Shown: positions 10,986 to 32,000 of the stretch, one piece after another
How positions within the stretch are numbered: position 1 is the stretch's first letter
Layout of the letters: every line of letters starts with the position of its first letter
NCBI GenBank assembly: GCA_016205145.1
Contig: JACQJH010000001.1
Span: 90,001-122,000, forward strand
Length of the DNA: 32,000 nucleotides
Origin: Candidatus Iainarchaeum sp.
Lineage (GTDB): Archaea > Iainarchaeota > Iainarchaeia > Iainarchaeales > JACQJH01
Direction: 5' to 3'
Position numbers and translations under genes: made by a program
The notes under the pieces: generated by a model
The model's database searches: none
Told to the model about the DNA's origin: nothing
The model's input: the letters and a program-made list of their open reading frames with translations, nothing else

Positions 10986-11948
10986 GTGAAAAAAACAAGG
11001 ACGATTTTTATTCCACTAATACTGTTTGCCGCATTGGTCTTTGCGGGCTGCACACAGGCAAACGAAAAAACGGGTTTGCTGACACTCAGCGCCAACGAAC
11101 GCGTAAACATTCTTGACGGTGACAGGTACTGGTCATTAGGAGCAGGAAAAGCCGACGGCATAACAGGACAACCGTTGCAGGACACTTCAACAATCTACCC
11201 CGGCTCATTTTCAATAAGAGACCTCTGGGTGCAAAAAGACAGATTATTCATTGACAGAACCGGCAGAATCGGAATCGGAACAACAGCCCCAGAAGTCAAA
11301 CTTGACATAAAAGAATCCGACCAAACATACCCGCCCTTAAGAATAACCAACACGAAAAACGATGGTTACGCAGGCATCGTCTTTGGCACAGATAGCGGCA
11401 TACAAGGGCACATGGGAGCCGCAGGTTATTATGCTGCCAATCAAAAGCTGAGAAACTCCGTTTATTTCGGGTCGACAGGGGACAAAAGAGTGGTAATAAC
11501 CGCAAACGGGATTCCCAGGATGTTCATTGAGCCGACATACTTTCAAAGCTTTATAACAAATTCGCCAGATGCAAATGGATCTACATCCTTTTCTGCCTCA
11601 ACGACCATGACTGCCGGAAACCAAGGAAGAGGAATATATTTTAGGGTAATGGATATTCAGGGAACTCGGACAGCATTGAGCGTCTCATTAGATGCAGGGG
11701 GGTCCACCGGAGTTTTCAGCGTAAACGCCCAAAAACTGGAAACAAGTGGCGGTACTTCATTCACGGCACCACAGACCGCCTTGTCTGTAACACCGGAAAC
11801 AATAAGGTTAACATTACTGAATGGCGCAAGAATAAAGATAGCGTCCTCCGCACCGGCTAACAGGCAGCTTTGTATTACTGGACAGCAAGAATTGGGTTTC
11901 TGTTCGAGTGTAAATGCGGATGGTACGTGCACATGCGTGCCAGTTTAA
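10986..11948 (+). CDS. lipobox surface protein with a tail-fibre-like GIGTT motif; paralog of 31240-32000
   Basis: GTG start 7 nt after GGAGG. MKKTRTIFIPLILFAALVFAGC is a signal plus lipobox. Contains DRTGRIGIGTTAPEVKLDIKESD and a C-terminal 4-Cys motif CITGQQELGFCSSVNADGTCTC. A 200-nt stretch is ~90% identical to the inverted copy at the window end. Confidence 0.7.
   Translation: MKKTRTIFIPLILFAALVFAGCTQANEKTGLLTLSANERVNILDGDRYWSLGAGKADGITGQPLQDTSTIYPGSFSIRDLWVQKDRLFIDRTGRIGIGTTAPEVKLDIKESDQTYPPLRITNTKNDGYAGIVFGTDSGIQGHMGAAGYYAANQKLRNSVYFGSTGDKRVVITANGIPRMFIEPTYFQSFITNSPDANGSTSFSASTTMTAGNQGRGIYFRVMDIQGTRTALSVSLDAGGSTGVFSVNAQKLETSGGTSFTAPQTALSVTPETIRLTLLNGARIKIASSAPANRQLCITGQQELGFCSSVNADGTCTCVPV
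11217..11416 (+). repeat. left arm of an inverted repeat pair (partner 31796-31995)
   Basis: Hand alignment of 11217-11416 against the reverse complement of 31796-31995 gives 19 mismatches in 200 nt, with identical runs up to 32 nt (gacataaaagaatccgaccaaacatacccgcc). Confidence 0.85.
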
Positions 11949-11963
11949 ATTAGGCAAAACTTT

Positions 11964-11998
11964 AAGCCGGTTTACAGCCGGCTTTTCTTTTTTTCTTC
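11964..11998 (+). terminator. hairpin plus T-tract downstream of 10986-11948
   Basis: aagccgg-tttacag-ccggctt forms a 7-bp stem and is followed by ttctttttttctt. Confidence 0.5.
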
Positions 11999-12106
11999 CA
12001 AAGGTTCCGTGTGTCGCCTGTCCATCTATGGAATTCCTGCGCGGCTGATTTTTTTTCCACAAAAGCGTTAAAATAGTTTCTCCGCTTTTTTTAATCCGGT
12101 GAAAGC

Positions 12107-13363
12107 ATGGCGTTTGAACTGAGCGAAACCACCAGGAAATGGCTTCCGTCCGCAACCTTGGGCGTGAAGGAGCAGATAACAAGGACGGAAAAGGAACTGC
12201 AGGCACTGCACAGCAAATCCGATTACAAAATAGTCGTGCTTACAGCCGGCCAGCCGCATTTCAAGCCGACCGATGATGTCATTGCCGCGCTCAGCGAAGG
12301 CGGAAAGTTCACGCCCTACCAGCCTGTTTCAGGCTATCCTGAACTGAAAAGCCTTGTCGCTGAAATGGTTTCAAAGCAGGCCGGCAATTCTTATTCAGCT
12401 GAAAATGTGCAAATTTCCGTTGGAGGAAAGGAAGCGCTCTACAATGTTTTCGGCGCAATCACGAATGAGGGAGACGTTTTTTTTGTGCCCGCGCCTTATT
12501 GGGTTAGCATTCCAACGCAGATTGAAAGCTTCGGCGGAAAAGTTGTTGTCGTTGAGCCGGATGACAGCCTGAAGATTTCCGCACACGCACTTGAACAAGC
12601 CATAAAAAACGCGCCGCACGGGAAAAAGGTTGCATTGTACCTGAATTCGCCGTCCAATCCGACCGGCATGGTTTACTCGAAAGAAGAGCTTGAAGCAATA
12701 GCTGTGGTGTGTAAAAAGCACAGCCTTGACGTGGTTTCCGACGAATGTTACACGTCGCTCACTTTTGACGGCCTGGGCGTTGCTCCAAGCATTGCCTCGC
12801 TTGAAGGAATGGCTGAACGCACCGTAATCATTGGCACGATGTCAAAGCAATTCTGCGCGCCAAGCTACCGTGTAGGATGGGCAGTCGGGCCGAAAGACCT
12901 GATTTCCGGAATGAACAAAAGGCAGGCTGACATCAGTTCAGGCACTTCAATGCCTGCGCAGTTCGCGTGCTGCGTTGGGTTGAAAAGCGCCGCGGCAAAG
13001 GCGCGCACAGAGGAAATGGTTGAATATTACGAGAAGGCGCGTGACAATTTCATTGCAGGATTGTCGAAAATAATGGTCGGAGGAAAGCATGCATTCAAAA
13101 TAAACCAGAAACCGCAGGGTGCGTTCTATTTGTTTCCGGACGTGAGCGAGATTTACGGAAAAAGCTACGAATTCAACGGCCAGAAATTCAAAATCAACGG
13201 CTCCGAGGACTGCCAGCTTTTCTTCATGCGTTCCGGAGTGGCGTGCGTCAACGGAAAGTCTTTCGGCGCTGACAAGTGCGTGCGCTTTTCCTACGCTACA
13301 ACGAATGAAACGCTTGCGTTGGCGGTTGAAAGGTTCAGGGAAGCGATTGGAGCGCTCAAGTGA
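12107..13363 (+). CDS. class I/II PLP-dependent aminotransferase (aspartate aminotransferase-like)
   Basis: 418 aa. LNSPSNPTGMVYS, DECY and the PLP-lysine motif GTMSKQFCAPSYRVGW (SKxxxxxxxRxG). Confidence 0.85.
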   Translation: MAFELSETTRKWLPSATLGVKEQITRTEKELQALHSKSDYKIVVLTAGQPHFKPTDDVIAALSEGGKFTPYQPVSGYPELKSLVAEMVSKQAGNSYSAENVQISVGGKEALYNVFGAITNEGDVFFVPAPYWVSIPTQIESFGGKVVVVEPDDSLKISAHALEQAIKNAPHGKKVALYLNSPSNPTGMVYSKEELEAIAVVCKKHSLDVVSDECYTSLTFDGLGVAPSIASLEGMAERTVIIGTMSKQFCAPSYRVGWAVGPKDLISGMNKRQADISSGTSMPAQFACCVGLKSAAAKARTEEMVEYYEKARDNFIAGLSKIMVGGKHAFKINQKPQGAFYLFPDVSEIYGKSYEFNGQKFKINGSEDCQLFFMRSGVACVNGKSFGADKCVRFSYATTNETLALAVERFREAIGALK

Positions 13364-13372
13364 GATGATGCA

Positions 13373-13927: not shown

Positions 13928-13929
13928 AA

Positions 13930-16813: not shown

Positions 16814-18424
16814 GTGGATCAAAACCTTCCAAAAGGCCAGTCCGCCATAGAATATCTTTTGCTGTTGGGCGCCGCGATTTTGATTGCCGCGGTTGTCGTT
16901 GCCTTGATTATTTTTGTGGGTTCCGGGGGCAAGCAGTCGGCGCAAAGAGGGTCGCAGACTGTTGCTGTAGCGCAGGGGAATCTTTCCAAATCCCTTGGCC
17001 TGCCAGGCCCCATCACCGACCGCGGCGGCGGAATTTTTGATTTGAAAAAGGATTTTGGCGCGAAAGGCGACGGGGTTTCCGACGATTATGAATCGTTCAT
17101 TGCTGCTGCGGCCAAGCTGAGCGGTTCGACTGACGCAACGCTTGTCATTCCTGCAGGGGACTATAAGATTGACCGGTACAAGATTTTGGCTGCGACTTCC
17201 GACGGCAGGCTTCCAAATGGCGTAACCGACATCAAGTTTTCCGGATGCAACGGCCTGGAAATTGTCGGCTTGGGAAAGGACGCATCGGGAAACTACAAGG
17301 CAAAAGTCGAGGTCAAGGGCGACTTTTACAGGTCGGCGGACCGCAGTGCCGTCAATGCCGCGGGCGTGACGGTGTGGAGTTCCAATTCCGGTTCGGTCAC
17401 GCCGTTTTATTTCGATCACTGTAACGGATTTTCCATTTCCGGCTTGGAATTGTACGGCAACAACGACAAGATGTCGCACGATCCGCGCGTCAGAGAACAC
17501 CCGTCAGGAATGGGCATTGCGACTTATGGCTGCAAAAATTATTCGATTTCCGACATTTTTGTGCACAACTTCCAGACGGACGGCATTTACCTTGGCGGCT
17601 CGGCAAGCCCCGTGGATTCGGGCGCAACCGTTGACGGCGTGGTTTCAAGCAGCAACGGCAGGCAGGGCCTCAGCATAATTCAGGTGAAAAACTCGACAAT
17701 AAAAAACAGCGTTTTCAAGGACACCGGCATTACGGGCGGAAGCGACACAGGATATAATCCGAGGGCCGGCGTTGACATCGAGCCGAACGTGAACGTCCCC
17801 AACATAACCGAAAATCTTGTTTTTGAAAACGACGAGTTCAGCAACAACCGCGGCTACCAGATTGTTTCAAGCGCTTATGTTGGCGGAATCGTGGTCAGGA
17901 ATTCAAGGGTTTTTTCGGGAAACCAGCGCAAGCTCGCCTATTTCAGGGTGAACGGCATTACAATCGAGGGCTCCGAATTCAAGACTTCTGCAAGGGAGTT
18001 TGCCCAGGACTGGGACAAGAGCGGATTCGGGGTCACTCTCATGGCGGGCGGAACCGCGCTTATAAAAAACAATCTCATAGAGGCATCCTCGTTGGCGTAT
18101 CCTGTGAAAACCGTTGGAATCCACAGGCCTTACGTGCACTTCTTTTCGGGAAGCGGGATAACCTTTGCGGGCAACAGAATTTCCACCGACTCAAGCTTTT
18201 TTTATCCCATTTCAGGGCAGGCTTATGACACCGCAATTTATTTGAACGTCGGCGAATCCTCGAACAACACTTTTTCGACCGGCATGACCGGCTTAAACCA
18301 TTTCGCAGTCGTTTACGGCCCGGCCACAAAAGTCGTTTCAGACGCGTTTTTGCCGCGGGACAATTTCAGGCCGCAGCCGGGATATGTTTGGACTGGCGCA
18401 GGCAACTCTTATTCGCAGAACTGA
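16814..18424 (+). CDS. class III (prepilin-type) signal peptide fused to a right-handed beta-helix, pectate-lyase-superfamily domain
   Basis: GTG start. N-terminus MDQNLPKG/QSAIEYLLLLGAAILIAAVVVALI (basic residue-Gly, then Q at +1, E at +5, then a hydrophobic helix). Followed by FDLKKDFGAKGDGVSDDYESF..VIPAGDY and repeated PbH1-like turns: NGFSISGLELYGNN, YSISDIFVHNFQTDGIYLGG, GLSIIQVKNSTIKNSVF, LVFENDEFSNN. Confidence 0.8.
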   Translation: MDQNLPKGQSAIEYLLLLGAAILIAAVVVALIIFVGSGGKQSAQRGSQTVAVAQGNLSKSLGLPGPITDRGGGIFDLKKDFGAKGDGVSDDYESFIAAAAKLSGSTDATLVIPAGDYKIDRYKILAATSDGRLPNGVTDIKFSGCNGLEIVGLGKDASGNYKAKVEVKGDFYRSADRSAVNAAGVTVWSSNSGSVTPFYFDHCNGFSISGLELYGNNDKMSHDPRVREHPSGMGIATYGCKNYSISDIFVHNFQTDGIYLGGSASPVDSGATVDGVVSSSNGRQGLSIIQVKNSTIKNSVFKDTGITGGSDTGYNPRAGVDIEPNVNVPNITENLVFENDEFSNNRGYQIVSSAYVGGIVVRNSRVFSGNQRKLAYFRVNGITIEGSEFKTSAREFAQDWDKSGFGVTLMAGGTALIKNNLIEASSLAYPVKTVGIHRPYVHFFSGSGITFAGNRISTDSSFFYPISGQAYDTAIYLNVGESSNNTFSTGMTGLNHFAVVYGPATKVVSDAFLPRDNFRPQPGYVWTGAGNSYSQN

Positions 18425-18483
18425 CGTTTGCCTTTTGTGCACTTGGGCGTGCCAAAGGATTTAATTTGTGTGAATGATATTTG

Positions 18484-20031
18484 ATGGTGAAACCGATGTT
18501 TTCCCGTGGCCAGTCCGCAATCGAGTATCTGCTGTTGCTTGGCGCCGCGATTTTGATTGCCGCGGTTGTCGTTGCCTTGATTTCTTTTGTGGGTTCGGGC
18601 GGAAAGACTTCGGCGCAGGAATCAGGCGTGCAGCAGAGGCTGGCAATGCAGAACCTTGCGGCTGTTGGGGGCATGGGTTTCTCCTATTCCTGTGTTGCTA
18701 ATGGTGTCTGCGAAGCCGATGAAACAATGCAGTCCTGTTCCGCGGACTGTGCTGGCAAGCCTTTCAGGCAGTACCTGCATTTTTATTCGGCGGAGGCGGG
18801 GGGTTCTGAGGTTTCTTCCGTGCCGGCGCCCATGCTTAACGTGCCCGCTTCGGGTTTGCGGCATTATATCTATGTCGAGCTTTCCGAAATGCACGGGCAT
18901 CTCAGTGTTTACCGTTCCGCCACCGTAAACAATGCGAATAACCGGTCTGTCGCGCTTTCACCCGGCGAAATCGACGCGCTGTTCAATCTTTACGGCGTGG
19001 AAACGGGCAATCCTGTTAGAGGGAAGAGCATGAACATGAGCATACTGCAGCGTGCCGACGTGCAGAAAATCCATCATGAACTTGCACAAGGCAATCCTGC
19101 GTATAATGCAAAGTACGGCAATGGCGGCCTGGAAACAGGGGTCGGGCTTGACGGTTCCGGAATGCCCGTTCTTGATGCTTCCGACAAGCTTGTGCCGGAC
19201 AGACCGGTACAGGATTACCAAGACGGCAAAACAATGCTGTGGCCGTTTTACTACAATGCCAGCGGCAAGCATAAGATGAGGGTTCTCTGGAACCTTAACA
19301 GCCCGGCGGTCAGGGAATATCTTGTGCGGTACGGCGTGAAAACCGCCTCTTTCAGTCCAAGCGGCGACCTGTTTATTGACAACACTATTTTTCCGGGCCA
19401 GGTGCTGGAGGATTATTCATATGTTTTTTCAGGTGCAAGGAACGGCCTTGCGGCGCATCTTTCCGGCATTACATTGGAAATTCGGGCAGAAATCGTGAAA
19501 CGGCTTGACGGAAAGGGGCTGATAATGAACGCTCTCAGGTTCACAAACTCCGACAATGAGATATTTTCTGATGCTGTTGTTGATTCCGGCCAGTTTGACG
19601 GTTTGATGGCCGAAAACCAGTTTTGGCGTGATGGCATTGCCATTGGCGGTTCTCCAAGGGGTGCGACGTCCGTTGCATGGTACCGGGATTTGACGCAGAA
19701 AATGAAATCAAAAGGCAAAAAGATTCTTTTTACGGCCTCCGGCTCCGGTTTTACGCGGGCTGATCCCTCAAAGATTTTGCCAGTTTGGTTATGGTTGCAC
19801 TTGGTTGCTGATGACAGCACGTATTTTCTATTGCCGGGCAATGGAGCCGATGGCGATTCGTTTGATAACCAGTTCCTTCCGTTTGTTTTTCCGCTCGGCT
19901 ATCCGCTTGACCAAGCACCGGTGCAGGACGGCAGTGTGTGGAGCAGGCGCTATGAGCGCGGCACGATTGTTTTTGACATTTCAAGCGGAAGGCTTGACGC
20001 CATAAGGTTCGAGGAAAACCCGCCCGGGTGA
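18484..20031 (+). CDS. class III (prepilin-type) signal peptide fused to a Cys mini-module and a GH-like domain; paralog of 26452-28209
   Basis: N-terminus M(VKPM)FSRG/QSAIEYLLLLGAAILIAAVVVALI; alternative ATG at 18496. 18541-18582 is 42/42 identical to 16868-16909. CVANGVCEADETMQSCSADC is followed by ~430 aa collinear with the 26452 gene (SGQFDGLMAEN, WLWLHLVADD, GYPLDQAPVQDGSVWSRRYERGTIVFD). The enzymatic family is not confidently named. Confidence 0.8.
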   Translation: MVKPMFSRGQSAIEYLLLLGAAILIAAVVVALISFVGSGGKTSAQESGVQQRLAMQNLAAVGGMGFSYSCVANGVCEADETMQSCSADCAGKPFRQYLHFYSAEAGGSEVSSVPAPMLNVPASGLRHYIYVELSEMHGHLSVYRSATVNNANNRSVALSPGEIDALFNLYGVETGNPVRGKSMNMSILQRADVQKIHHELAQGNPAYNAKYGNGGLETGVGLDGSGMPVLDASDKLVPDRPVQDYQDGKTMLWPFYYNASGKHKMRVLWNLNSPAVREYLVRYGVKTASFSPSGDLFIDNTIFPGQVLEDYSYVFSGARNGLAAHLSGITLEIRAEIVKRLDGKGLIMNALRFTNSDNEIFSDAVVDSGQFDGLMAENQFWRDGIAIGGSPRGATSVAWYRDLTQKMKSKGKKILFTASGSGFTRADPSKILPVWLWLHLVADDSTYFLLPGNGADGDSFDNQFLPFVFPLGYPLDQAPVQDGSVWSRRYERGTIVFDISSGRLDAIRFEENPPG

Positions 20032-20108
20032 ATTTTCGCCCAAGTCGGAATTCGGTGGCCCGGAAAGCTTTTTATATGGTTTTACACTATTTTCTATTGT
20101 GTTTTAAT

Positions 20109-20357
20109 ATGAATTTGACCGTCAATTTTTCCGGCCACGTTGAAGACGTAATTGAACGCCTCGTTGAAAAAGGCGTTGTCAAAACGAAATCCGAAGCGCT
20201 TCGGCTTGGCATTCTGAAGCTTGAAGAGCAGTATCTGCGCAGCCTTGACGCAGATGACCTGATTTTGGCTGAAAAGGCATGGGATGATTTCAAAGCAGGC
20301 AAGAACAAATCTCTGTCGGAAAGGGAGTTCTACTCTAAAACAGGCCTGAAAAAATGA
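20109..20357 (+). CDS. putative antitoxin (ribbon-helix-helix-like) of a RelE-family toxin
   Basis: 82 aa from ATG 20109; the track ORF starts at 20028. MNLTVNFSGHVEDVIERLVEKGVVKTKSEALRLGILKLEE has a strand-helix-helix pattern. Its stop overlaps the toxin start (ATGA, 20354-20357). Confidence 0.6.
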   Translation: MNLTVNFSGHVEDVIERLVEKGVVKTKSEALRLGILKLEEQYLRSLDADDLILAEKAWDDFKAGKNKSLSEREFYSKTGLKK

Positions 20358-20605
20358 GTTTTGAAGCGGTTTTTCTTGAATCTTTTGCCGATGACGTGGC
20401 AAGGCTTGACGGCAGCCAAAAAACGCTTGTTGAAAAAAGGCTCCGCAGGCTCACTGCAAACCCGTTTTCCGAAAAGCCACTTCACGGCCAGAAACGGTTT
20501 TGGGCTTCGAGGATCCTGAACCTGAGAATAATTTACCGCATTGAAGGGCAAAAAATATTTTTTGCCAGGGTTTCAAGCAGGAAAGACGTTTACAAAAACC
20601 TGTAG
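20354..20605 (+). CDS. relE: RelE/ParE-superfamily type II toxin
   Basis: 83 aa. FADDVARLDGSQKTLVEKRLRRLTANPF..PLHG....SRILNLRIIYRIEGQKIFFARVSSRKDVYK matches the RelE/StbE pattern (...RiiY.i......i..v.hRkdvY). Confidence 0.8.
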   Translation: MSFEAVFLESFADDVARLDGSQKTLVEKRLRRLTANPFSEKPLHGQKRFWASRILNLRIIYRIEGQKIFFARVSSRKDVYKNL

Positions 20606-20608
20606 CTG

Positions 20609-20642: not shown

Positions 20643-20643
20643 T

Positions 20644-21665: not shown

Positions 21666-23285
21666 TTATTTTTTGCCAATGCGCTCCAGCTTTTCATCCG
21701 CCTTCTTTTCCGCTTCCAGCCTTTCCAGGCCCGCGCCTTTCTCGTAGACGAATTTCATGAGTTCGAAGACAAGCGGGGTCGCCTTTTTCGCCTGATGGAA
21801 CATTTCGATTGAAACCCTTCGGTAGTCGGCGTGTCCCTGCGGCGTCGACCTCAGCTCAACCAAGTGGTACATTTCACGCGCGTTGAGAGTGAAATACCAT
21901 CTTATTTTGTACGCGAGCGGGACAACGTATTGTGCCTGCAACGGCATTTCCTTCGCGATTTTATCGTAAGTTTCCTTCGCTCCTGCCATTGCCTTTTCAA
22001 ATTCCTTCAAAACGCCCGCCTTTTCCAGTTCGGGATAAGTGTCATAGCCGAAGTTTGCCGTCAAAAGCTGGCGTTCCTGTGTAAGCTGGCGATGTCGGTG
22101 CAAGTCACGGAAGCCGCCGTAATTTGAGAGCAAGTCGAAAGTGTAGTATGCGTTTTCGAAGCTTCGCAAAGGCTTGTGCCTGCGGTTCTGCCTGTGCGCA
22201 AGAGATGCATGGATGACTTTGCGCTTTTCCTCTTCGCCCATTGCGGCAACGATTTTTTTGAGCTGGTGCAGGGGCTTGTCGCTGTGCGCGTAAAGCAGCG
22301 CGCAAACGATTTTGTTGTCGGCTTCCATGTCAAAGTCGACCAGTTCCACTTCCTTTGCCTGCTCCGCATGTTTGCCTGCAAGCAGTTCTTTTGCGGTTGC
22401 GTCAAGGTTTGCGTTCGCCTGCCTGAAAAAATCCTGTGTCGGGCCGCCGTATTTTCCGGCCGCGCGCTTGACGAAAGAAGGAATGTAAGTCAAAAGCTCT
22501 TCGTGCAATGAAGAAGCGATGCCGTTGATTTCCTTCAATGGCGAGGCGTGCATTTTGAGTATGAGGTATTCGAACGCCCTGCCATTGCCGTACAGGCCGA
22601 GGTTTGTCAGCGTTGAAGCAGGCAGGAGGCCGCGCAGGAGGTCGCAGGTTTTAGCCTTGATTGTCGACTTGTACGCGCGGTCGGTTGTCTCGGAGTCCTG
22701 CGGAAACCATTCCTCGGCCTGTGTTCTCACTTTCGGCACGAGTTCGGCGTACGTGCCGAACAGCAAATCGCACGTTTCCACGTAATCCTTTTCGAATGCC
22801 GACTGCATTATGCCAGGCTCGAGCAGGTACTGGTATCGGCCGCCCTCTTTCTCGTCAAAGTAAACGTAGCGCGTGCTTTTTTCCAGGGGGGAGAGGCCAA
22901 TGCGTGAATCCTCGAGGACTTTGCTTGCGATGATTGAAACCTTTTCGCATGCGACGTGCGCTCCGCCTAATTCCGCGACGGAATCGTCGCCGTAGCCGAC
23001 CAGAACGCGGTCGTAAAACTCTTCGGCTTTCTTGGTTGCGATTGCCTGCTGTTCTCCGTTTCCAAGTGAATAGTTGACGATTTCCCGGAAGCCGGATTCC
23101 TTGTCGGCAATGAATTCGTCGAGCAAAAGCCTGCGCAATGGTTTCGGCGAGCGCGAATAGCGCGAGAACAGTGCGCCTGAAACGACTTCGGGCAGGTTTT
23201 TGAGGACAAAGACGTTTTTGTCCATGTTCGAAAAAAACGGTTCCAGGATTTTCCGCTCTTCCGAGGAAAAAGAATTTTCCGCCAT
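21666..23285 (-). CDS. long-form ThyX-like (Thy1-fold) protein, putative FAD-dependent thymidylate synthase
   Basis: 539 aa. The C-terminal half has FRDLHRHRQLTQERQ and TLNAREMYHLVELRSTPQGHADYR, which align with the ThyX RHR motif and NxRxLxxxxxLR...H/Q region. N-terminal GALFSRYSRS suggests a second, degenerate copy. Confidence 0.6.
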   Translation of the reverse strand: MAENSFSSEERKILEPFFSNMDKNVFVLKNLPEVVSGALFSRYSRSPKPLRRLLLDEFIADKESGFREIVNYSLGNGEQQAIATKKAEEFYDRVLVGYGDDSVAELGGAHVACEKVSIIASKVLEDSRIGLSPLEKSTRYVYFDEKEGGRYQYLLEPGIMQSAFEKDYVETCDLLFGTYAELVPKVRTQAEEWFPQDSETTDRAYKSTIKAKTCDLLRGLLPASTLTNLGLYGNGRAFEYLILKMHASPLKEINGIASSLHEELLTYIPSFVKRAAGKYGGPTQDFFRQANANLDATAKELLAGKHAEQAKEVELVDFDMEADNKIVCALLYAHSDKPLHQLKKIVAAMGEEEKRKVIHASLAHRQNRRHKPLRSFENAYYTFDLLSNYGGFRDLHRHRQLTQERQLLTANFGYDTYPELEKAGVLKEFEKAMAGAKETYDKIAKEMPLQAQYVVPLAYKIRWYFTLNAREMYHLVELRSTPQGHADYRRVSIEMFHQAKKATPLVFELMKFVYEKGAGLERLEAEKKADEKLERIGKK

Positions 23286-26377: not shown

Positions 26378-26417
26378 CGGCCTATAACCGTTTGGCATTC
26401 TTTCATGGGCATGCTTT

Positions 26418-26492
26418 CTGTTTTAAAAAACCTTTCAGGGCAATCGTTTTTATGCATCCAAGCGACGCCATCAAGGGAACCGCGTCAAAAAG
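26418..26492 (+). repeat. direct repeat copy A: promoter plus first 13 codons (partner 28245-28320)
   Basis: ctgttttaaaaaacctttcagggcaatcgtttttatgcatccaagcgacgccatcaagggaaccgcgtcaaaaag is ~84% identical to copy B, with an identical 21-nt core cgtttttatgcatccaagcga. The TATA-like ttttaaaaaa (26421-26430) lies ~26 nt upstream of the conserved ATG at 26452. Confidence 0.85.
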
Positions 26493-28209
26493 ATTTTTCA
26501 TGCCGCATTTGAAACCGGTTGTTGTCTGCGCATTTGTGTTGCTTGTTTTGCTTTCCGGTTGCACCGCCACAAAAAGCAAAGGCGTGGAAAAGCCGGTTGA
26601 TTCCGACAAAAACTTTTTGGATTCAAACCAAGCCAAGTCCGCGCCCGAAACTGGCGGGCCGCGACAGCCGCCAACCACGGAATTGGTTGCTGAACAACCG
26701 GACGCCAATGTTCCGGATGCAAACGCCGGCGCACCCGACGTGAATGCAGCGGCTGCTGTCGTGTTTTGTAACCGGAACGGCGCCTGCGACACAAACGAGT
26801 CCGCGGTTTCCTGTCCGGCCGATTGTGCCATTCTTTCCGGAGGCGGAGGAGGCGGCAATTCGCCACAGCCGCCGTCAGGAAACGATAGCGGTTCGTGCAA
26901 TTCGGACGGCGCATGCAACGGAAACGAGGACACAGCTTCATGCCCTGCTGACTGCAGTGTAAGGCAGTTCAGGCATTATTTGCGGTTTTATGCTTTGGAT
27001 TACTATAATCGGTTTTCAACAAAGCCGCCGGCGCCGGAAGGGCTGGTTGAATTCACCATCACGCAGGGCACGCCTTTTGGCAACCTGCAGGATTATACTC
27101 ATTTTAATGTGACGGATTCCGGCCATGTTGTTTTGACAACTTCCACTGCGCCCAAAACTCTTGTTGCGTTGAGCCAAAGCGAGCTTGACGGCTTGTTTGC
27201 GCAGTATGGTTTTGGCGGGGATAAAAACAACATCTATTCTGGCGTGATTGCAAGGGCTGAAGTCGGGAAAATCCATGAGGAACTTGTAGAACGCCATCCG
27301 GAGCTTTTTCCGAACGGCACTGAATTGTTTGTCGGCGCCGTCATAGGGCCGGACGGGTTGCCCGAGCTCGTGGACAACTTTCCGGTCAGGGAAAGAAGCG
27401 ACATTGCCGACTACCAGCTTGGCAAAACAATGGTTTACCCGCTTCCATATTCGCCGGTCGGCTACGGGCGGTACCGGACGCTTTGGAATCACGGCAGCTG
27501 GGCGGTCAGGGTATATCTTGCAAGAAGGGCCAATAAGCTGGTGAATGGCGTTCCAGGCGTGGAGAATATTTTTTTGGATAACGTGCAATTGCCGGCTTAT
27601 ATCAAATATCTTGGCTCCCGTGTTGGTTCGGTTCCGGTGCCAAATTATGTTTCGCCCGGAAGCAGGGATGAACAGTTTGCTGTTTATGCGAACAATTTTG
27701 TTTCGGTTCTTACTGCCGTTCGCGTAAAAACCGGCGCAAAAATGCTTCTTAACGGTTTGTATGAAGTGAAGGCTAACCAAAGCATTTTTTTTCAAAAACT
27801 AATTGCGTCCGGCCAGTTTGACGGCCTTATGACGGAAAACGGGTTTTTTGCTGACGGCGTGGAAAACAATTTGGGCGGCAGCGCGGCAAGCGTGCAATGG
27901 TACTGGGATCAGGTGCAGTGGTTGAAGCAAAACGGCAAAAACGCGGTTTTTTTGGCGGGCGGGAAGGACGCTTCGAAGGCATCCAAGGCCTGGCTTTGGG
28001 TGCATTTAGTTGCTGACACCAATGTTTTCTTTTCGACCAATCCCAATGAACATTTTGACGTTTACGATTCTCCTTTGGGGTATCCTCTTGACCAGGCTCC
28101 GGTAAAAAACGGCAGCGTGTGGAGCAGGCGCTACGAGCGCGGCACGATTGTCTTTGACGTTTCGGGCGGAAGGCTTGACGACATAAAGTTTGTCGAAGGC
28201 CCGGCATAG
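26452..28209 (+). CDS. lipobox-anchored GH-like protein with two Cys mini-modules; paralog of 18484-20031
   Basis: MHPSDAIKGTASKRFFMPHLKPVVVCAFVLLVLLSGC; alternative start at 26500. FCNRNGACDTNESAVSCPADCA, a GGGGGG linker and CNSDGACNGNEDTASCPADCS. The body is collinear with the 18484 gene (SGQFDGLMTEN, WLWVHLVADT, GYPLDQAPVKNGSVWSRRYERGTIVFD). Confidence 0.8.
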   Translation: MHPSDAIKGTASKRFFMPHLKPVVVCAFVLLVLLSGCTATKSKGVEKPVDSDKNFLDSNQAKSAPETGGPRQPPTTELVAEQPDANVPDANAGAPDVNAAAAVVFCNRNGACDTNESAVSCPADCAILSGGGGGGNSPQPPSGNDSGSCNSDGACNGNEDTASCPADCSVRQFRHYLRFYALDYYNRFSTKPPAPEGLVEFTITQGTPFGNLQDYTHFNVTDSGHVVLTTSTAPKTLVALSQSELDGLFAQYGFGGDKNNIYSGVIARAEVGKIHEELVERHPELFPNGTELFVGAVIGPDGLPELVDNFPVRERSDIADYQLGKTMVYPLPYSPVGYGRYRTLWNHGSWAVRVYLARRANKLVNGVPGVENIFLDNVQLPAYIKYLGSRVGSVPVPNYVSPGSRDEQFAVYANNFVSVLTAVRVKTGAKMLLNGLYEVKANQSIFFQKLIASGQFDGLMTENGFFADGVENNLGGSAASVQWYWDQVQWLKQNGKNAVFLAGGKDASKASKAWLWVHLVADTNVFFSTNPNEHFDVYDSPLGYPLDQAPVKNGSVWSRRYERGTIVFDVSGGRLDDIKFVEGPA

Positions 28210-28244
28210 GTCAGCCGTTTTGTTCGCTGTTTGTCGTATCCGCG

Positions 28245-28320
28245 CTGTTTTAAAAATCCTTTTCCGGCCATTCGTTTTTATGCATCCAAGCGAAGCAATC
28301 CGGGCTTCCGCGTCAAAAAG
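28245..28320 (+). repeat. direct repeat copy B: promoter plus first 13 codons of coaBC
   Basis: ctgttttaaaaatccttttccggccattcgtttttatgcatccaagcgaagcaatccgggcttccgcgtcaaaaag. The TATA-like ttttaaaaa (28248-28256) lies ~28 nt upstream of ATG 28280. Confidence 0.85.
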
Positions 28321-29482
28321 CCTTTACGGAAAGCTCATAGTGTTGGGAGTTTCATCAAGCATTGCCGCAGTGAAGACTGTTGAAATTGCAAGGGAACTGA
28401 TCAGGCACGGCGCGGAAGTGCAGGCAGTGATGTCAAAGGGCGCGGAAGACATCATTGCGCCGGGGGCGCTGGAGTTTGCCACGGGGAAGCCTGTCATAAC
28501 GCATCTCAGCGGAATGGTCGAGCACGTCGACCTGTTCGGAGCGCATGGAAAAGCCGATTTGCTTTTGTTGTGCCCTGCAAGCGCAAACGTGATTGGAAAA
28601 ATCGCGAATGGCATAGCTGATGATGCCCTGACAACCATTGCAATGACTGTTGTTGGGGTGAAAAAGCCAGTCCTGGTCTGCCCGGCAATGCATTTGGAAA
28701 TGTGGCAGAACACTGCCGTCAGGGTGAACGTCGAAAAGCTTGGCGTGCTGGGCGCGGAATTCGTGCCGGCGAAAAGCCTTGAAGGCGCGGAAAAAATCGC
28801 GGACAAGGAAACGATTGTGCTGTTTGTGGAACGGGCGCTTTCCGGCAAAAGGCTTGCAGGCAAAAAGGTTGTCGTTTGCGCCGGCGCAACGCGCGAGGAA
28901 ATCGATCCCGTGCGCGTGCTGACAAACAAGGCATCGGGAAAAACCGGCGAGGAAATCGCAAAAGAGGCTTTCAGGCAGGGCGCACAAACCACACTTATAC
29001 ATAATCGGGATTGTTTTGTTTCCGGCATCAAATGCGTGCAGGCGCAAACCATCGAGGAATTCCGCAAGGCAATCCTTTCGGAGCTTGAAGGCGCGGATGT
29101 TTTCGTCTCGGCGGCGGCAATCGGCGATTTTGTAGTGGAAAAGGCGAAGGACAAGCTTGCTTCGGAAAAAGGCGTTGAATTGAAGTTCAGGCCCGCCCCT
29201 AAAATCCTCGCGGAAGTCGTGAAGAAATTTCCCGATTTGTTCGTTGTCGCGTTCAAGGCGGAAACGAACAAGGGGACGGAAGAGCTTGAAAAAATCGCAA
29301 AGGAAAAGCTGAAGGAACTGAAGCAGGGCTTTGTGGTTGCGAACGACGTGGCACATGGTGGAATGGGAACGGATGAAAATTCGGTTTTGATCGTCGGCAA
29401 AAACTTTTCGGAAAGCGTTTCAGGAAAGAAAAGCCTGATTGCCAGAAAAATCGTGGAAAAAATTGAATGCGGTCTGCCATAA
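28280..29482 (+). CDS. coaBC: bifunctional phosphopantothenoylcysteine decarboxylase / phosphopantothenate-cysteine ligase
   Basis: 400 aa from MHPSEAIRASASKSLYGKLIVLGVSSSIAAVK. CoaC region: PASANVIGKIANGIADDALT. CoaB region: VCAGATREEIDPVRVLTNKASGKTG and AAAIGDF. The start is chosen at the conserved ATG of repeat B rather than the track start 28190. Confidence 0.9.
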   Translation: MHPSEAIRASASKSLYGKLIVLGVSSSIAAVKTVEIARELIRHGAEVQAVMSKGAEDIIAPGALEFATGKPVITHLSGMVEHVDLFGAHGKADLLLLCPASANVIGKIANGIADDALTTIAMTVVGVKKPVLVCPAMHLEMWQNTAVRVNVEKLGVLGAEFVPAKSLEGAEKIADKETIVLFVERALSGKRLAGKKVVVCAGATREEIDPVRVLTNKASGKTGEEIAKEAFRQGAQTTLIHNRDCFVSGIKCVQAQTIEEFRKAILSELEGADVFVSAAAIGDFVVEKAKDKLASEKGVELKFRPAPKILAEVVKKFPDLFVVAFKAETNKGTEELEKIAKEKLKELKQGFVVANDVAHGGMGTDENSVLIVGKNFSESVSGKKSLIARKIVEKIECGLP

Positions 29483-29596
29483 TTTCCTTTGCGGAACCAA
29501 TTGTTTCACCAACCGAAAATGTCGGCACTGCCCGCCGCTAGGTTAACTGCCATATTTATATAGTACTTTGTTTCATGCTAATTTCGTTGTCTGCAA

Positions 29597-31009
29597 ATGC
29601 CGGCCGCGGTTGGAGTTGATTCGTTGAAAAAAAGCATGTTTTTCGTTTTGCTGTTTTTTGGTGTTGTTGTTTCGGGCTGCCTTCAAACTGACTCTGAAAA
29701 AGCCGCCATTGAGCTTTCAGCTTCGACTGTTGAAGGAAAACTCGCCAAGACCCTGATGGAATCGCTGAAAAAGACAGGCGAGTGCAGCGTATCGGATTAT
29801 GCCGGGGTTGCCGGCCCGGCCAACCCGCTGATAAGAAACATGGGCTTTAACGTTTCTCTTCCGACACAGGAGACCGAAGCCGCCGAATTGGTTGAAAATG
29901 CAAAAGAATGCAATGTGCAATTGCTGCGGAACGTTTTGGAAGTCGAAAAGGACAAAAAATACCAGGTCAACTACACTGCAAAAGTTGACAGTTCCTGCAA
30001 ATACTCCGGCCTAAAACCGGTTTTGTCGGCTTATATTTTGACGATTTCGGTCGACCTTGAGGAAAAAACAGCGGTTGTTGAAAAGGGAAAGCTTAAGGAC
30101 AGCATTGCACAGCAGGTATCAGAGTTCCAGCCGGCTTTTATGCTCATGGGAAAGTGCGCGGCTCCAATACTGCTCGGCATTGGATTTTTCGGGGACTTTT
30201 TGGGTTCAGACAGCGGCCCGGGCTTAGACGGCGGTCCAGACGAAGGGGAAAAGATAGCTTACGGCTTTGACGCTTTCTGGGATGATTCGAAACAAAACCC
30301 GATTCAGCTGTCGTGGAATCACGCCCAAAGTGACGGCCAGTACTATGTCGCAATTGAAATGTGGGCCACCGGCAACAGTTCGCCGCTTGGTTCAATTGAA
30401 ACGACCATAGAGAACTTAAAGGACGGCCCGGCGTTCCCGTTGGGCCACGTTTTCAGTTATGACCTGGACGGCGGGGAAATTTATTATGGCGGGCAGCTGT
30501 CATACCCGCACGAATTCAAGGTCGATGCCTATCTTTTGGACAGTGAATACAGCATTGTGGAAAAGTTCGGCTACAAGGAATTTTCAATTGGCGCGCCCCA
30601 ACAGCAGGAGGCGCCGGATGCAGCAGGCGTTGTTTCGAATTTTGTTGCAAGATGGGACGCCGAAGACAGCCAGAACCCCCTGAAGTTTACATGGGATTTT
30701 GTTCCGCAGGGCGGCCAGTATTTTGTGGCGCTTGACATGTGGAATACCGGCAACAGTTCGCCGCTTGGTTCGATTGAAATGACCATAGAGCGGTTAAAGG
30801 AGGGCTCGCCGTTCCCGTTGGGCCATGTTTATGCCGCGGAAGACGGAAGCGGCTCGCTTTATTGGGGCGGGCAATACACTTATCCGGACGTGTTCAGGAT
30901 ACACGCATACCTCTTGGACGAATCATATGATTTGGTCGGGGAAACAGCGTATGTTGAATTGACAAGAAACAATGCTGACGAAAGCCCGACATCGGTTCCC
31001 ATCGGATGA
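29597..31009 (+). CDS. lipobox protein with a C-terminal tandem 126-aa repeat
   Basis: 470 aa. ...KKSMFFVLLFFGVVVSGC is a signal plus lipobox; an in-frame TTG at 29624 is an alternative start. Two repeat units share W(D/N)xxQxxGQY(Y/F)VAx(E/D)MWxTGNSSPLGSIExTIExLK(D/E)GxxFPLGHV...YxGGQxxYPxxFxxxAYLLD. Confidence 0.75.
   Translation: MPAAVGVDSLKKSMFFVLLFFGVVVSGCLQTDSEKAAIELSASTVEGKLAKTLMESLKKTGECSVSDYAGVAGPANPLIRNMGFNVSLPTQETEAAELVENAKECNVQLLRNVLEVEKDKKYQVNYTAKVDSSCKYSGLKPVLSAYILTISVDLEEKTAVVEKGKLKDSIAQQVSEFQPAFMLMGKCAAPILLGIGFFGDFLGSDSGPGLDGGPDEGEKIAYGFDAFWDDSKQNPIQLSWNHAQSDGQYYVAIEMWATGNSSPLGSIETTIENLKDGPAFPLGHVFSYDLDGGEIYYGGQLSYPHEFKVDAYLLDSEYSIVEKFGYKEFSIGAPQQQEAPDAAGVVSNFVARWDAEDSQNPLKFTWDFVPQGGQYFVALDMWNTGNSSPLGSIEMTIERLKEGSPFPLGHVYAAEDGSGSLYWGGQYTYPDVFRIHAYLLDESYDLVGETAYVELTRNNADESPTSVPIG
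30260..30964 (+). repeat. tandem intragenic repeat, two units (30260-30589 and 30638-30964), period 378 nt
   Basis: Core blocks at 30371-30452 and 30749-30830 are ~88-90% identical at the nucleotide level (ggcaacagttcgccgcttggttc.attgaaa.gaccatagag...gttcccgttgggcca.gttt). Confidence 0.8.
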
Positions 31010-31182
31010 AAAACCGTCCTGAACAGAAAAGGGCACGGCTTGTTGGCATCGTTCCGGTCTGGCCGGGCTTTGTTCGGGTGTTGCGCCTGTTTTTGCGGCA
31101 ACAGTTATTGTGCGTCTTCTTTTTTTGGCGTAGTTGCCCAAGGAATTTTCAGCCGGACCCAAATGCGCCGGGCTGACCGGGA

Positions 31183-31224
31183 ATCGTAAAATAAAAAAGA
31201 AAAAGGCGCCGGCAAACGCCGGCG
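31183..31224 (-). terminator. GC hairpin plus U-tract downstream of the minus-strand paralog
   Basis: On the minus strand, cgccggc-gttt-gccggcg (7-bp stem, 31207-31224) is followed by cctttttcttttttatttt. It starts 16 nt after the stop at 31240-31242. Confidence 0.55.
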
Positions 31225-31239
31225 TTGAAGTGTTTTATT

Positions 31240-32000
31240 TCACTGGCAGCCGCACGTGCCGTCAGCGTTCGGCGCGGTCGAGCAGACGCCGAGCTTATTG
31301 TCCGGGGTAATACACACGATTTTGTTTCTTGCCCCGACCTGGAAGCCGGTGGTTGGCCTATGCCCTCTGTAGCTAAGCAATACGTCTCCGCCCAGCTCAA
31401 TTTGCTTCGCGTCGAGAAAAATATTGCTTTTGCGGCCAACGTAACCGCTTGCCCCATTATTTTCCATGGTAATGCCGGCATAATCATTTGAGCCGGCACT
31501 GCCGGACGGCGCAACAAACTGTTCGTTGCCCTGCTGTCGCAGTTCTATTCTATCGGCACTCACTGAGATACTTGAGTACAAAATGTTTCCGTCTGTCAGG
31601 GGTTGTTTCCGGTCTTCCATGTAAATCCCCCTCTGCACGTGATTTGGCATCCCAGTATTAAGCGATGAGTTCAAGCGAATATATGTAAAACCGTCGGCAT
31701 TTTTCGTCGCTATTTTGGTTGGAATGTCGGCATTTGTGCTGCCAAAATAGACCGAGTTTCTAAGCGTTTCGTTCGCCGCGTTCGGCCCGGCAACGCCCAT
31801 GTGCCCTTGTATGCCGCTGCCCGTGCCAAAGATGAGGCCAGCGTAACCGTCGTTTTTCGTGTTGGTTATTCTGAGCGGCGGGTATGTTTGGTCGGATTCT
31901 TTTATGTCGAGTTTTACTTCCGGTGTTGTGGTTCCGATTCCGATTTTGCCGGTTCTGTCAACGAATAATCTGTCTTTTTGCACCCAGAGGTCCCTGATTG
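31240..32000 (-). CDS. tail-fibre-like GIGTT-motif protein, paralog of 10986-11948; 5' end beyond the window
   Basis: The reading frame stays open to the window edge (..IRDLWVQKDRLFVDRTGKIGIGTTTPEVKLDIKESDQTYPPLRITNTKNDGYAGLIFG...). The C-terminal CITPDNKLGVCSTAPNADGTCGCQ has the same 4-Cys motif as the paralog. The Met at 31983 in the track is internal, judged from the paralog alignment. Confidence 0.7.
   Translation of the reverse strand, partial: IRDLWVQKDRLFVDRTGKIGIGTTTPEVKLDIKESDQTYPPLRITNTKNDGYAGLIFGTGSGIQGHMGVAGPNAANETLRNSVYFGSTNADIPTKIATKNADGFTYIRLNSSLNTGMPNHVQRGIYMEDRKQPLTDGNILYSSISVSADRIELRQQGNEQFVAPSGSAGSNDYAGITMENNGASGYVGRKSNIFLDAKQIELGGDVLLSYRGHRPTTGFQVGARNKIVCITPDNKLGVCSTAPNADGTCGCQ
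31796..31995 (-). repeat. right arm of the inverted repeat pair (partner 11217-11416)
   Basis: See the left arm: ~90% identity over 200 nt in inverted orientation. Confidence 0.85.

What the first reader, a model, noticed from the sequence alone, without database searches (positions are those of the whole stretch)
11217..31995. Inverted paralogous genes with ~90% identical 200-nt arms flank a 19.3-kb segment
11217-11416 and the reverse complement of 31796-31995 differ at 19 of 200 positions and contain identical runs up to 32 nt. They lie within two convergently oriented tail-fibre-like genes. Each gene is followed on its inner side by a GC hairpin and T-tract. Inverted repeats of this quality are substrates for recombination that would invert everything between them (aminotransferase, ppdK, the surface-enzyme locus, the ThyX-like gene, coaBC). 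Recombination would also exchange the variable C-terminal parts of the two surface proteins behind a conserved N-terminal part, a shufflon-like effect without a dedicated recombinase.
Basis: partly seen in the sequence, partly recalled or inferred. Interest (0 to 1): 0.55.

Follow-up and report, generated by a model that had tools for sequence, protein, structure and literature searches.

The report
Paralogous fibre-like lipoprotein genes, inverted
The inverted repeat is real, but it is the shared front end (upstream leader, signal peptide, fibre-like domain) of two duplicated surface-lipoprotein genes in a small DPANN archaeon; it shows old gene-conversion footprints and no sign of acting as a DNA-inversion switch.

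Summary
11217-11416 and the reverse complement of 31796-31995 differ at 19/200 positions. The repeat is longer than reported: about 538 nt at 87% identity (window 10933-11470 vs 31742-32276, the latter running past the window end). It starts 53 nt upstream of both GTG start codons and covers codons 1-162.

The genes are HY394_00520 and HY394_00590 of a Candidatus Diapherotrites MAG. Both encode about 320-aa lipobox proteins with three parts: one unit of the beta-helix repeat of Bdellovibrio MAT/tail-fibre proteins, a hypervariable centre, and a conserved 4-Cys C-terminus.

In the arm, dS between the copies is about 0.4; it is saturated in the rest of the genes. Site patterns change at about 11330-11336, the end of the 32-nt identical run (0/5000 permutations). 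So part of the gene has been exchanged in the past. That exchange is about as old as the divergence between related strains.

Gene A is a 1.27-kb presence/absence cassette, missing from one related genome. Two related contigs that carry a B orthologue show the same linkage as this genome.

An inversion would leave both genes intact, each behind an equivalent leader and N-terminus. The shufflon analogy therefore fails. No recombinase is present. This is an ordinary paralogue pair, with a modest lead on DPANN adhesins.

The parts
10933..11470 (+). Arm A of the inverted repeat: 53 nt of 5' leader (TATAAAA and GGAGG motifs), the GTG start, and codons 1-162 of gene A
   Evidence: 87% identical to arm B. 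Identity falls to background upstream of -53 and downstream of about +485.
31742..32000 (-). Arm B, the part inside the window. The full arm runs to 32276 in coordinates extended with Logan contig L007.
10986..11948 (+). Gene A (HY394_00520, P0001, 320 aa): lipobox signal peptide (LVFAGC), MAT/tail-fibre-type beta-helix repeat unit (aa 82-153), variable region (aa ~164-290), 4-Cys C-terminus
31240..32000 (-). Gene B (HY394_00590, P0002, 328 aa), lacking its first 75 codons in the window. The complete gene is 31240-32226.
11304..11335 (.). Longest identical run (32 nt; its partner is 31877-31908). Every Logan k=31 contig from three sequencing runs ends here. The recombination breakpoint inferred from site patterns lies at its right edge (~11330-11336).
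31877..31908 (.). Partner of the 32-nt identical run, in arm B
11471..11867 (+). Variable region of gene A. It cannot be aligned at nucleotide level with B or with the B orthologues.
31318..31741 (-). Variable region of gene B. It is 86-100% identical per 50-nt window to the orthologue in contig L013, but cannot be aligned with the orthologue in L001.
11868..11945 (+). Conserved Cys-rich C-terminus of A (LCITGQQELGFCSSVNADGTCTCVPV)
   Evidence: dS between A and B is saturated here, unlike in the arm.
31243..31317 (-). Conserved Cys-rich C-terminus of B (VCITPDNKLGVCSTAPNADGTCGCQ)
11964..11994 (+). GC hairpin plus T-tract after gene A
31197..31224 (-). GC hairpin plus T-tract after gene B. It is conserved in the L001 orthologue.
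10782..12057 (+). Gene A cassette, a 1.27-kb presence/absence polymorphism. In related contig L014 the stop codon of the 790-aa gene is followed after 44 nt by the aminotransferase start. No target-site duplication was seen.
11471..31741 (.). Segment between the arms (20,271 nt). It holds core metabolic genes (aminotransferase, ppdK, ThyX, coaBC, a DAP-dehydrogenase-like gene), a ParDE pair, and several secreted or surface proteins.

Best explanation
The arms are the shared 5' module of a two-member gene family. The module holds a 53-nt upstream leader, a GTG start, a lipobox signal peptide and an N-terminal domain of about 140 aa. That domain contains one beta-helix repeat unit of the kind that builds Bdellovibrio MAT fibres and phage tail fibres.

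Both genes encode small lipoproteins that are probably surface-anchored. Each has a conserved stalk-like N-terminus, a hypervariable centre and a conserved disulphide-rich C-terminus. I infer that they are adhesins.

The second copy (A) sits in inverted orientation about 20 kb from the syntenic copy (B). It lies in a 1.27-kb cassette that is absent from a related genome. Its 5' 540 nt shares a much more recent ancestor with the B lineage than its 3' part does. So either segmental gene conversion or a chimeric duplication homogenised the 5' module. This happened roughly when the sampled sister strains diverged, and short conversion patches have occurred since.

The inverted repeat is a by-product of this history. 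It is not a programmed switch. A crossover between the arms could in principle flip the 20-kb core segment, but that would not change which proteins are made.

Shown: repeat extent, gene structure, dS contrast, breakpoint, cassette indel, conserved synteny. Inferred: lipid anchoring, fibre or trimer architecture, adhesin role, and the direction and timing of conversion.
For: Repeat and genes:
-.

Organism and family size:
- Only four full-length members were found (A, B, P0003, P0312), after searching 5.8e9 and 1.8e9 proteins, JGI metagenome contigs and IMG/VR.

Fibre motif:
- The family profile (aa 85-153) matches PDB 8OND, the Bd2133 MAT fibre, at E=4.4e-7, and 8OML, Bd1334, at E=0.018.
- 16,109 proteins carry the repeat, up to 43 stretches per protein.
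- Remote hits carry Peptidase_S74 or H-lectin domains. PHROG tail fibre E=3.6e-4.
- PMC10769870 describes MAT paralogues with 75%-identical N-termini and exchanged C-termini.

Partial homogenisation:
- A-B dS is 0.26-0.57 across the arm and saturated in codons 164-318, including the constrained C-terminus.
- The 5' leader is also conserved.

Mosaic structure:
- Three-sequence max-chi2 breakpoint at +345/351, with 0/5000 permutations reaching the observed value.
- Four-sequence informative sites are AC|BD 6 (all left of +301), AD|BC 7 (5 within +352..438) and AB|DC 3 (2 inside the 32-nt run).

Age:
- Over codons 1-115, arm dS is 0.39 for A vs B in this genome, 0.26 for A vs the L013 B orthologue, and 0.255 for B vs the L013 orthologue.
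- Between-strain background dS is 0.2-0.45 (L013), 0.40 (L014) and 0.34-0.98 (L001/L015).

Cassette indel:
-.

Synteny:
- HMGR, small lipoprotein, B, (470-aa gene), coaBC in this genome.
- HMGR, small gene, P0003, coaBC in L001.
- HMGR, small gene, P0312 with a B-type variable part in L013.
Against: - No reads were available, so a minority inverted sub-population cannot be excluded. All Logan contigs break at the 32-nt run and carry no phasing information.
- Whether the cassette was gained here or lost in the L014 genome is not polarised.
- With only four sequences, some conflicting sites may be homoplasy.
- Fibre or trimer architecture is unproven. AlphaFold models were poor (pLDDT 31 and 51), and the Foldseek hits to MAT fibres were not significant (E>=0.016).
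- Only one or two repeat units are present, against dozens in true fibres.
- Lipid anchoring rests on a lipobox-like motif read by eye.
Confidence: 0.7

Rival explanations
1. One reading: the arms are active substrates for recombinase-independent homologous recombination. This recurrently inverts the 20-kb segment and swaps the variable C-terminal parts, giving shufflon-like surface variation.
For: - The arms are inverted, in frame and free of gaps in the coding part. They are 87% identical, with identical runs of 32, 30, 30, 28 and 25 nt.
- Past recombination within the arms is detectable, with a breakpoint at the edge of the longest identical run.
Against: - Both copies have their own equivalent 5' leader, start codon, signal peptide and N-terminal domain, so a swap changes at most about 13 of the first 146 residues and silences nothing.
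- Arm dS of about 0.4 equals between-strain divergence, and arm A is no closer to its genome-mate than to another strain's B. Exchange is therefore rare and old.
- The two related contigs with a B orthologue keep the same linkage between the 5' flank and the B-type 3' part or coaBC.
- Independent assemblies of three runs match the MAG arm sequences at 100%, with no chimeric arms recovered.
- No recombinase was found.
Confidence: 0.07
2. There has been no recombination. The two genes are old duplicates, and the arm is similar only because the N-terminal domain is under strong purifying selection while the rest evolves freely.
For: - The N-terminal domain is strongly conserved at protein level in all four members (dN 0.03-0.06).
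- aa 97-146 is nearly invariant even in the distant L001 orthologue.
Against: - Synonymous divergence in the arm (0.26-0.57) is far below the saturated dS of the equally constrained C-terminal Cys motif.
- The non-coding 53-nt leader is part of the repeat.
- Between +55 and +250, A and B are 86-92% identical, while B and its syntenic orthologue in L001 are only 53-73% identical.
- The branch-length pattern changes abruptly at +345/351 (0/5000 permutations).
Confidence: 0.08
3. Gene A is not an intragenomic duplicate. It is an allele captured from a related strain by horizontal acquisition of a 1.27-kb cassette. The arm similarity then reflects the 5' module conserved across the population rather than paralogue-to-paralogue conversion in this genome.
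For: - The cassette is absent from related contig L014, with a clean junction.
- Arm A is at least as close to the L013 strain's B as to this genome's own B (dS 0.26 vs 0.39).
- The L013 gene shares A-type states at +352..438.
- Orthologous B genes already carry unrelated central regions in different strains (L001 vs this genome).
Against: - No donor with an A-type variable region exists in any database searched.
- No mobile-element features or target-site duplication are present.
- Two sites inside the 32-nt run are shared only by A and B of this genome, which suggests at least one local conversion patch.
- This rival concerns origin only. It leaves the functional verdict unchanged.
Confidence: 0.25

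Closest known systems
Bdellovibrio bacteriovorus MAT (mosaic adhesive trimer) fibre proteins, e.g. Bd2133 and Bd1334 (Caulton et al. 2024, PMC10769870)
   Same: - The same beta-helix repeat motif (..R..ID..G.(I/V)GIGT..P..KL.V) is detected by profile search (E=4.4e-7).
- Paralogues have near-identical N-terminal parts and exchanged or divergent distal parts.
- A surface adhesin role is proposed, in an organism that may likewise depend on other cells.
   Different: - These proteins are about 320 aa with one or two repeat units, against 800-1,150 aa with long multi-repeat stalks.
- They are archaeal and have a lipobox N-terminus.
- They have no S74 chaperone and none of the solved tip folds.
- The variable part lies in the centre and is followed by a conserved 4-Cys C-terminus.
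- Trimer formation is untested.
Phage tail-fibre / receptor-binding protein modular exchange (conserved N-terminal anchor, swapped C-terminal tip)
   Same: - Mosaic conservation, with a sharp identity drop after the N-terminal module.
- Weak hits to PHROG tail-fibre families.
- Recombination breakpoints fall inside the conserved module.
   Different: - The context is a cellular core genome, not a virus. There are no hits in IMG/VR and the neighbours are housekeeping genes.
Shufflons and invertase-driven tail-fibre switches (R64 Rci/sfx; Mu Gin, P1 Cin)
   Same: - Inverted repeats lie inside genes for surface or fibre proteins, so an inversion would recombine the N- and C-terminal parts.
   Different: - There is no site-specific recombinase.
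- The arms are 538 nt of diverged coding sequence, not short crossover sites.
- Both gene copies are complete and carry the same upstream leader and start, so there is no constant-region/silent-cassette logic.
Segmental gene conversion between dispersed paralogues (concerted evolution of part of a gene, e.g. tuf genes or surface-antigen families)
   Same: - dS is low in one tract and saturated elsewhere.
- Phylogenetic signal is incongruent along the gene.
- A breakpoint lies at the edge of an identical run.
   Different: - Homogenisation here is old (dS about 0.4) and not maintained.
- The paralogues are not closer to each other than to a sister strain's orthologue.

Membership tests
Shufflon (R64-type multiple inversion system) | Adjacent site-specific tyrosine recombinase (Rci) | tested here: not met
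   The window ORFs scanned with Pfam (from 659 onward) and the L007 products (three scanned here; the others with precomputed Pfam calls) show no recombinase, integrase, invertase, transposase or reverse-transcriptase domain. The 112-aa ORF at 328-666 has no precomputed Pfam hit.
Shufflon (R64-type multiple inversion system) | Several short (~19 bp) inverted crossover sites bounding multiple invertible segments | tested here: not met
   Only one long inverted pair exists. The other inverted matches are 34-41 nt at 71%.
Shufflon (R64-type multiple inversion system) | One expressed constant N-terminal region fused alternately to otherwise silent C-terminal segments | tested here: not met
   Both copies have their own conserved 53-nt leader, GTG start, signal peptide and terminator.
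Inversion by homologous recombination between inverted paralogues | Both orientations seen within a population or among close relatives | tested here: not met
   - L001 and L013 show the same flank linkage as this genome.
- L014 lacks copy A.
- Logan contigs break at the 32-nt run and give no phasing information.
- Read-level data could not be accessed.
Inversion by homologous recombination between inverted paralogues | Arms with long tracts of identity that are kept homogeneous | tested here: inconclusive
   The arms are 87% identical over 538 nt, with a longest identical run of 32 nt. Arm dS of about 0.4 is similar to between-strain dS.
Segmental gene conversion / concerted evolution | Synonymous divergence much lower in the tract than in the rest of the gene | tested here: met
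   dS is 0.26-0.57 in the arm and saturated in codons 164-318.
Segmental gene conversion / concerted evolution | Change of phylogenetic signal along the alignment (breakpoint) | tested here: met
   Max-chi2 34.4 with a breakpoint at +345/351 and 0/5000 permutations. Conflicting informative sites are spatially clustered.
Segmental gene conversion / concerted evolution | Paralogues within a genome closer to each other than to orthologues in sister genomes | tested here: inconclusive
   This is met against L001 (+55..+250: 86-92% vs 53-73%). It is not met against L013 (dS A-B 0.39, A-D 0.26, B-D 0.255).
MAT fibre / tail-fibre-domain proteins | Beta-helix repeat motif (..ID..GN(V/I)GIGT..P..KL.V) | tested here: met
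   8OND Bd2133 E=4.4e-7 and 8OML E=0.018. 16,109 repeat-bearing proteins match aa ~85-140. The consensus appears in A3.
MAT fibre / tail-fibre-domain proteins | Long multi-repeat stalk | tested here: not met
   These proteins are 320-337 aa with one clear unit and one weak unit (aa 45-110 and 82-153). Library hits are typically 1,000-7,700 aa (a few under 800) with up to 43 matched stretches.
MAT fibre / tail-fibre-domain proteins | Homotrimeric fibre architecture | not testable with these tools
   Only monomer AF2 was available. Models were poor (pLDDT 31 and 51), and Foldseek hits to MAT fibres had E>=0.016.
MAT fibre / tail-fibre-domain proteins | C-terminal S74 intramolecular chaperone (S74 subfamily) or a known tip domain | tested here: not met
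   There is no Pfam or NCBIfam hit on A, B or P0003.
Diversity-generating retroelement target | Reverse transcriptase plus a template/variable repeat pair with adenine-specific mismatches | tested here: not met
   There is no RT domain, and no direct repeat involves the variable regions.

The most novel reading that the evidence does not exclude
These are lipid-anchored 'mini-fibres', an archaeal counterpart of the Bdellovibrio MAT and phage tail-fibre adhesins. A DPANN archaeon would use them to recognise its host or a surface. Their central tip region would be replaced wholesale between strains, and a second tip variant would be added as a cassette, through recombination within the conserved 5' module. 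Host-recognition diversification in DPANN would then work by the same modular logic as in phages and bacterial predators.
Probability: 0.3. Interest if true: 0.55.

Novelty: new member of a known kind. Interest (0 to 1): 0.3.

Why it matters
As posed, a recombinase-free shufflon that flips 20 kb of core genome, the finding does not hold up. It should not be carried forward as a switch.

Two things remain. The first is a clean small example of partial-gene homogenisation and cassette gain or loss in a surface-protein family of a reduced DPANN genome. The second is a lead: a motif otherwise known from phage tail fibres and predator MAT adhesins occurs in tiny lipobox proteins of an archaeon, with a strain-specific hypervariable centre.

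A 2024 cryo-ET study states that the molecular details of host recognition by DPANN remain unknown (PMC11329633). These two genes are reasonable candidates to test. The family is very small, though (four sequences), and its function is inferred.

Tried and rejected
- **Whole-genome DNA.** The genome-contig scan returned only two distant bacterial loci (L002, L003), not this MAG. I extended the window with Logan contigs instead.
- **Exact look-up of P0002.** It was not on record.
- **Orientation from Logan contigs.** All contigs from three runs end at the shared 32-nt run (11306, 11332/3, 31879/80, 31906), so they give no phasing.
- **More family members.** The JGI metagenome scan gave only a signal-peptide look-alike (L016), and the IMG/VR scan gave nothing.
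- **Structure prediction.** The 3-sequence alignment gave pLDDT 31. The 26-sequence alignment gave pLDDT 51, with only aa 71-115 confident. The Foldseek PDB search had no hit at E<=0.001, although the top ranks were all Bdellovibrio MAT fibres. I treated this as weak corroboration only.
- **RNA genes.** Rfam and tRNA scans found nothing in the window.
- **Composition.** GC and GC skew follow coding strand, with no island or inversion signature.
- **Family databases.** Pfam and NCBIfam found nothing on A or B.
- **Alternative mechanisms.** A DGR, a site-specific invertase and a mobile-element origin were each considered and rejected for lack of RT, recombinase or target-site duplication.
- **Failed scripts.** One script call did nothing, and one (42) timed out and was rerun.

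Full report

Yes. 11217-11416 aligned to the reverse complement of 31796-31995 gives 19 mismatches in 200 columns with no gaps. An unbiased repeat scan finds the pair as 11212-11470 / 31742-32000 (259 nt, 85%), cut off by the window end. The next-best inverted matches are 34-41 nt at 71%.

Logan assemblies of three sequencing runs (SRR12113383, -84, -85) are 100% identical to the window. One of them (L007) overlaps 31879-32000 and continues for 6.3 kb. With it, gene B is complete (31240-32226, minus strand). The full repeat is 10933-11470 vs 31742-32276, with 468/538 positions identical (87%). The only gap is 3 nt in a T-run of the 5' leader. Identical runs are 32, 30, 30, 28 and 25 nt.

The two GC hairpins with T-tracts on the inner sides are there (11964-11984; 31224-31207). 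The distance between the arms is 20,271 nt.

**2. What the genes are**

The window is from a Candidatus Diapherotrites (DPANN archaea) MAG, on a 612,963-nt contig. Gene A is HY394_00520 (P0001, 320 aa) and gene B is HY394_00590 (P0002, 328 aa). Fourteen locus tags separate them, which matches the ORFs I annotated.

Both proteins begin MKKTRTIFIPLILFAAL(V/L)FAGC, a lipobox-type signal peptide (read by eye). They are about 91% identical over residues 1-146 (13 differences). They then diverge to near-unalignable. Both end in a shared four-cysteine motif, C-x-T-x4-LG-x-C-S-x3-4-ADGTC-x-C.

Pfam and NCBIfam find nothing. A profile of the family matches the solved Bdellovibrio bacteriovorus fibre Bd2133 (8OND, E=4.4e-7) and Bd1334 (8OML, E=0.018) through the motif DR-x-xID-x-xG-x-IGIGT-x-xP-x-xKLD (aa 85-153). 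The same stretch matches 16,109 proteins in the 1.84-billion library. Most of the best hits are giant, with up to 43 repeats of the unit. Smaller remote hits carry Peptidase_S74 or H-lectin domains, or are named 'tail fiber domain-containing'. PHROG tail-fibre families hit weakly.

So 'tail-fibre-like' is right at the level of one repeat unit. The MAT paper describes exactly this family logic: paralogues with 75%-identical N-termini and exchanged C-terminal tips (PMC10769870).

Structure prediction was not informative (pLDDT 31 and 51). Foldseek put MAT fibres at the top, but with non-significant scores.

**3. The family is tiny, but the relatives are informative**

Across all searches there are four full-length members: A, B, P0003 and P0312.

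- **L001 (ENA ERZ27293400).** P0003 lies between an HMG-CoA reductase plus small-gene pair and coaBC. coaBC is 90% identical in nucleotides to the window copy.
- **L013 (ENA ERZ4903072).** P0312 lies behind the same HMGR plus small-gene pair. It is 91% identical to B over the entire gene, variable part included.
- **This genome.** The extension shows B, then a 141-aa lipoprotein, HMGR, an HMG-CoA-synthase-like gene (ACP_syn_III domains) and thiolase on the outer side. The 470-aa gene and coaBC lie on the inner side.
- **Consequence.** Both are syntenic orthologues of B. In both, the outer flank is linked to the same inner side as here. No fixed inversion separates the three genomes.
- **L014 (ENA ERZ28563625).** The stop codon of the 790-aa gene is followed after 44 nt by the aminotransferase start. 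The whole of window 10782-12057 (gene A with its own upstream and downstream spacers) is missing, with no target-site duplication. Gene A is therefore a 1.27-kb presence/absence cassette.

**4. Has the arm been homogenised?**

- A-B dS is 0.26 (codons 1-17), 0.40 (18-96) and 0.57 (97-146). It is saturated in codons 164-318, including the constrained Cys motif.
- The 53 nt upstream of the start codon belong to the repeat. Identity collapses upstream of that point.
- Between +55 and +250, A and B are 86-92% identical, while B and its syntenic orthologue in L001 are only 53-73% identical. Beyond +316, B and the L001 orthologue are 93-97% identical and A is the odd one out.
- Counting which of the three sequences (A, B, L001 orthologue) alone differs at each variable site gives 14, 18 and 64 unique changes left of +345/351, against 12, 0 and 2 to its right. 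Max-chi2 is 34.4, reached by 0 of 5000 permutations.
- With L013 added, the 2:2 informative sites conflict and cluster in space. AC|BD has 6 sites, all left of +301. AD|BC has 7 sites, 5 of them within +352..438. AB|DC has 3 sites, 2 of them inside the 32-nt run.
- The breakpoint coincides with the right edge of the longest identical run (window ~11330-11336).

This is good evidence that segments of the 5' module have been exchanged among family members.

**5. The exchange is old and not specific to the genome**

Over codons 1-115, dS is 0.39 for A vs B (this genome), 0.26 for A vs the L013 orthologue, and 0.255 for B vs the L013 orthologue. The background dS between this genome and the L013, L014 and L001/L015 genomes is 0.2-0.45, 0.40 and 0.34-0.98 respectively.

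The three arms form a near-trichotomy dating to about the time these strains split. Frequent crossover or conversion between the two arms of this genome would have made them the closest pair. They are not.

**6. Why the shufflon analogy fails**

A shufflon, or a Gin/Cin switch, works because one expressed constant region is joined alternately to different, otherwise silent, C-terminal segments by a dedicated recombinase. Here each copy has its own copy of the same 53-nt upstream leader, the same GGAGG motif, start codon, signal peptide and N-terminal domain. The coding parts of the arms are collinear and in frame.

A crossover would rebuild two intact genes that differ from the present ones by at most about 13 residues in the N-terminal 146. 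It would flip 20 kb of mostly housekeeping genes, each with its own upstream region.

No recombinase, invertase, transposase or reverse transcriptase was found in the window or in the genes with Pfam calls over 6.3 kb beyond it. Inversion remains physically possible. It would have no obvious phenotype, and no data show it.

**7. Best explanation**

This is a two-member family of small lipobox proteins that are probably surface-anchored. Each has a MAT/tail-fibre-type N-terminal unit, a strain-specific hypervariable centre and a conserved disulphide-rich C-terminus.

Copy B is the ancestral, syntenic copy. Copy A is a cassette inserted, or retained, about 20 kb away in inverted orientation. Its 5' 540 nt was derived from, or converted by, a B-lineage sequence around the time the sampled strains diverged. 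Small patches have been exchanged since.

An adhesin or recognition role is inferred from three things: the fibre motif, the predicted export, and the wholesale replacement of the central region between orthologues (L001 vs this genome) at otherwise roughly 80-90% nucleotide identity.

**8. Novelty and score**

The repeat is a new member of a known kind: paralogous fibre or adhesin genes with a conserved N-terminal module, a swapped distal part, and segmental gene conversion.

The only moderately novel aspect is finding this motif and this modular logic in tiny lipoproteins of a DPANN archaeon, where the molecular details of host recognition are described as unknown (PMC11329633). Interest is 0.3.

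Noticed in passing
window 26421-26497 and 28249-28325: A 77-nt direct repeat (79% identical). Each copy holds about 30 nt of upstream sequence (TTTTAAAAA motif), an ATG and the first ~15 codons (MHPSDAIKGTASKRF / MHPSEAIRASASKSL). One copy starts coaBC (28280-29482). The other starts an unrelated secreted GHL15-like protein (26452-28209), in frame ahead of its signal peptide. So a second upstream-plus-leader module is duplicated onto two different genes, echoing the A/B arms.
   Followed up: partly
window 29597-31009: A 470-aa ORF with a lipobox-like signal (VVVSGC) and an internal duplicated domain of about 125 aa (DNA repeat 30334-30452 / 30712-30830, 85%). It has no family hit in Pfam or NCBIfam. 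It is absent from related contig L001, where coaBC directly follows the B orthologue. This is another strain-variable surface protein, next to gene B.
   Followed up: partly
window 16814-18424, 18481-20031 and 26452-28209: Paralogous secreted proteins lie inside the 'invertible' segment. The first two share a 110-nt 5' end (85%) with weak archaeal class-III (pilin-like) signal-peptide hits. The second and third share about 1 kb of 3' sequence at 72-82% (repeat families D1, D5-D7). The first carries a right-handed beta-helix domain.
   Followed up: no
window 20028-20605: A ParD-like antitoxin (weak TIGR02606 hit) and a ParE toxin pair sit among core metabolic genes of a roughly 0.6-Mb DPANN genome.
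   Followed up: no
window 21666-23285: The ThyX gene encodes 539 aa. The best Thy1 match covers residues 315-504, with a second matched stretch whose position was not examined, so there may be a long unexplained N-terminal extension or a duplicated domain.
   Followed up: no
L007:492-917 (just beyond the window end; extended coordinates 32370-32795): A small, acidic, low-complexity lipobox protein (141 aa) lies divergently next to gene B. It evolves very fast between strains (dN 0.38-0.41 against the L001 genome, vs about 0.05 for neighbouring enzymes).
   Followed up: partly
window 11282-11297 (+297..+312 of gene A) and its partner in arm B: Five of the ten changes unique to B of this genome fall within 16 nt of the arm (positions 297, 301, 303, 306, 312 of the alignment). 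This looks like a short multi-nucleotide patch from an unsampled source rather than independent substitutions.
   Followed up: partly
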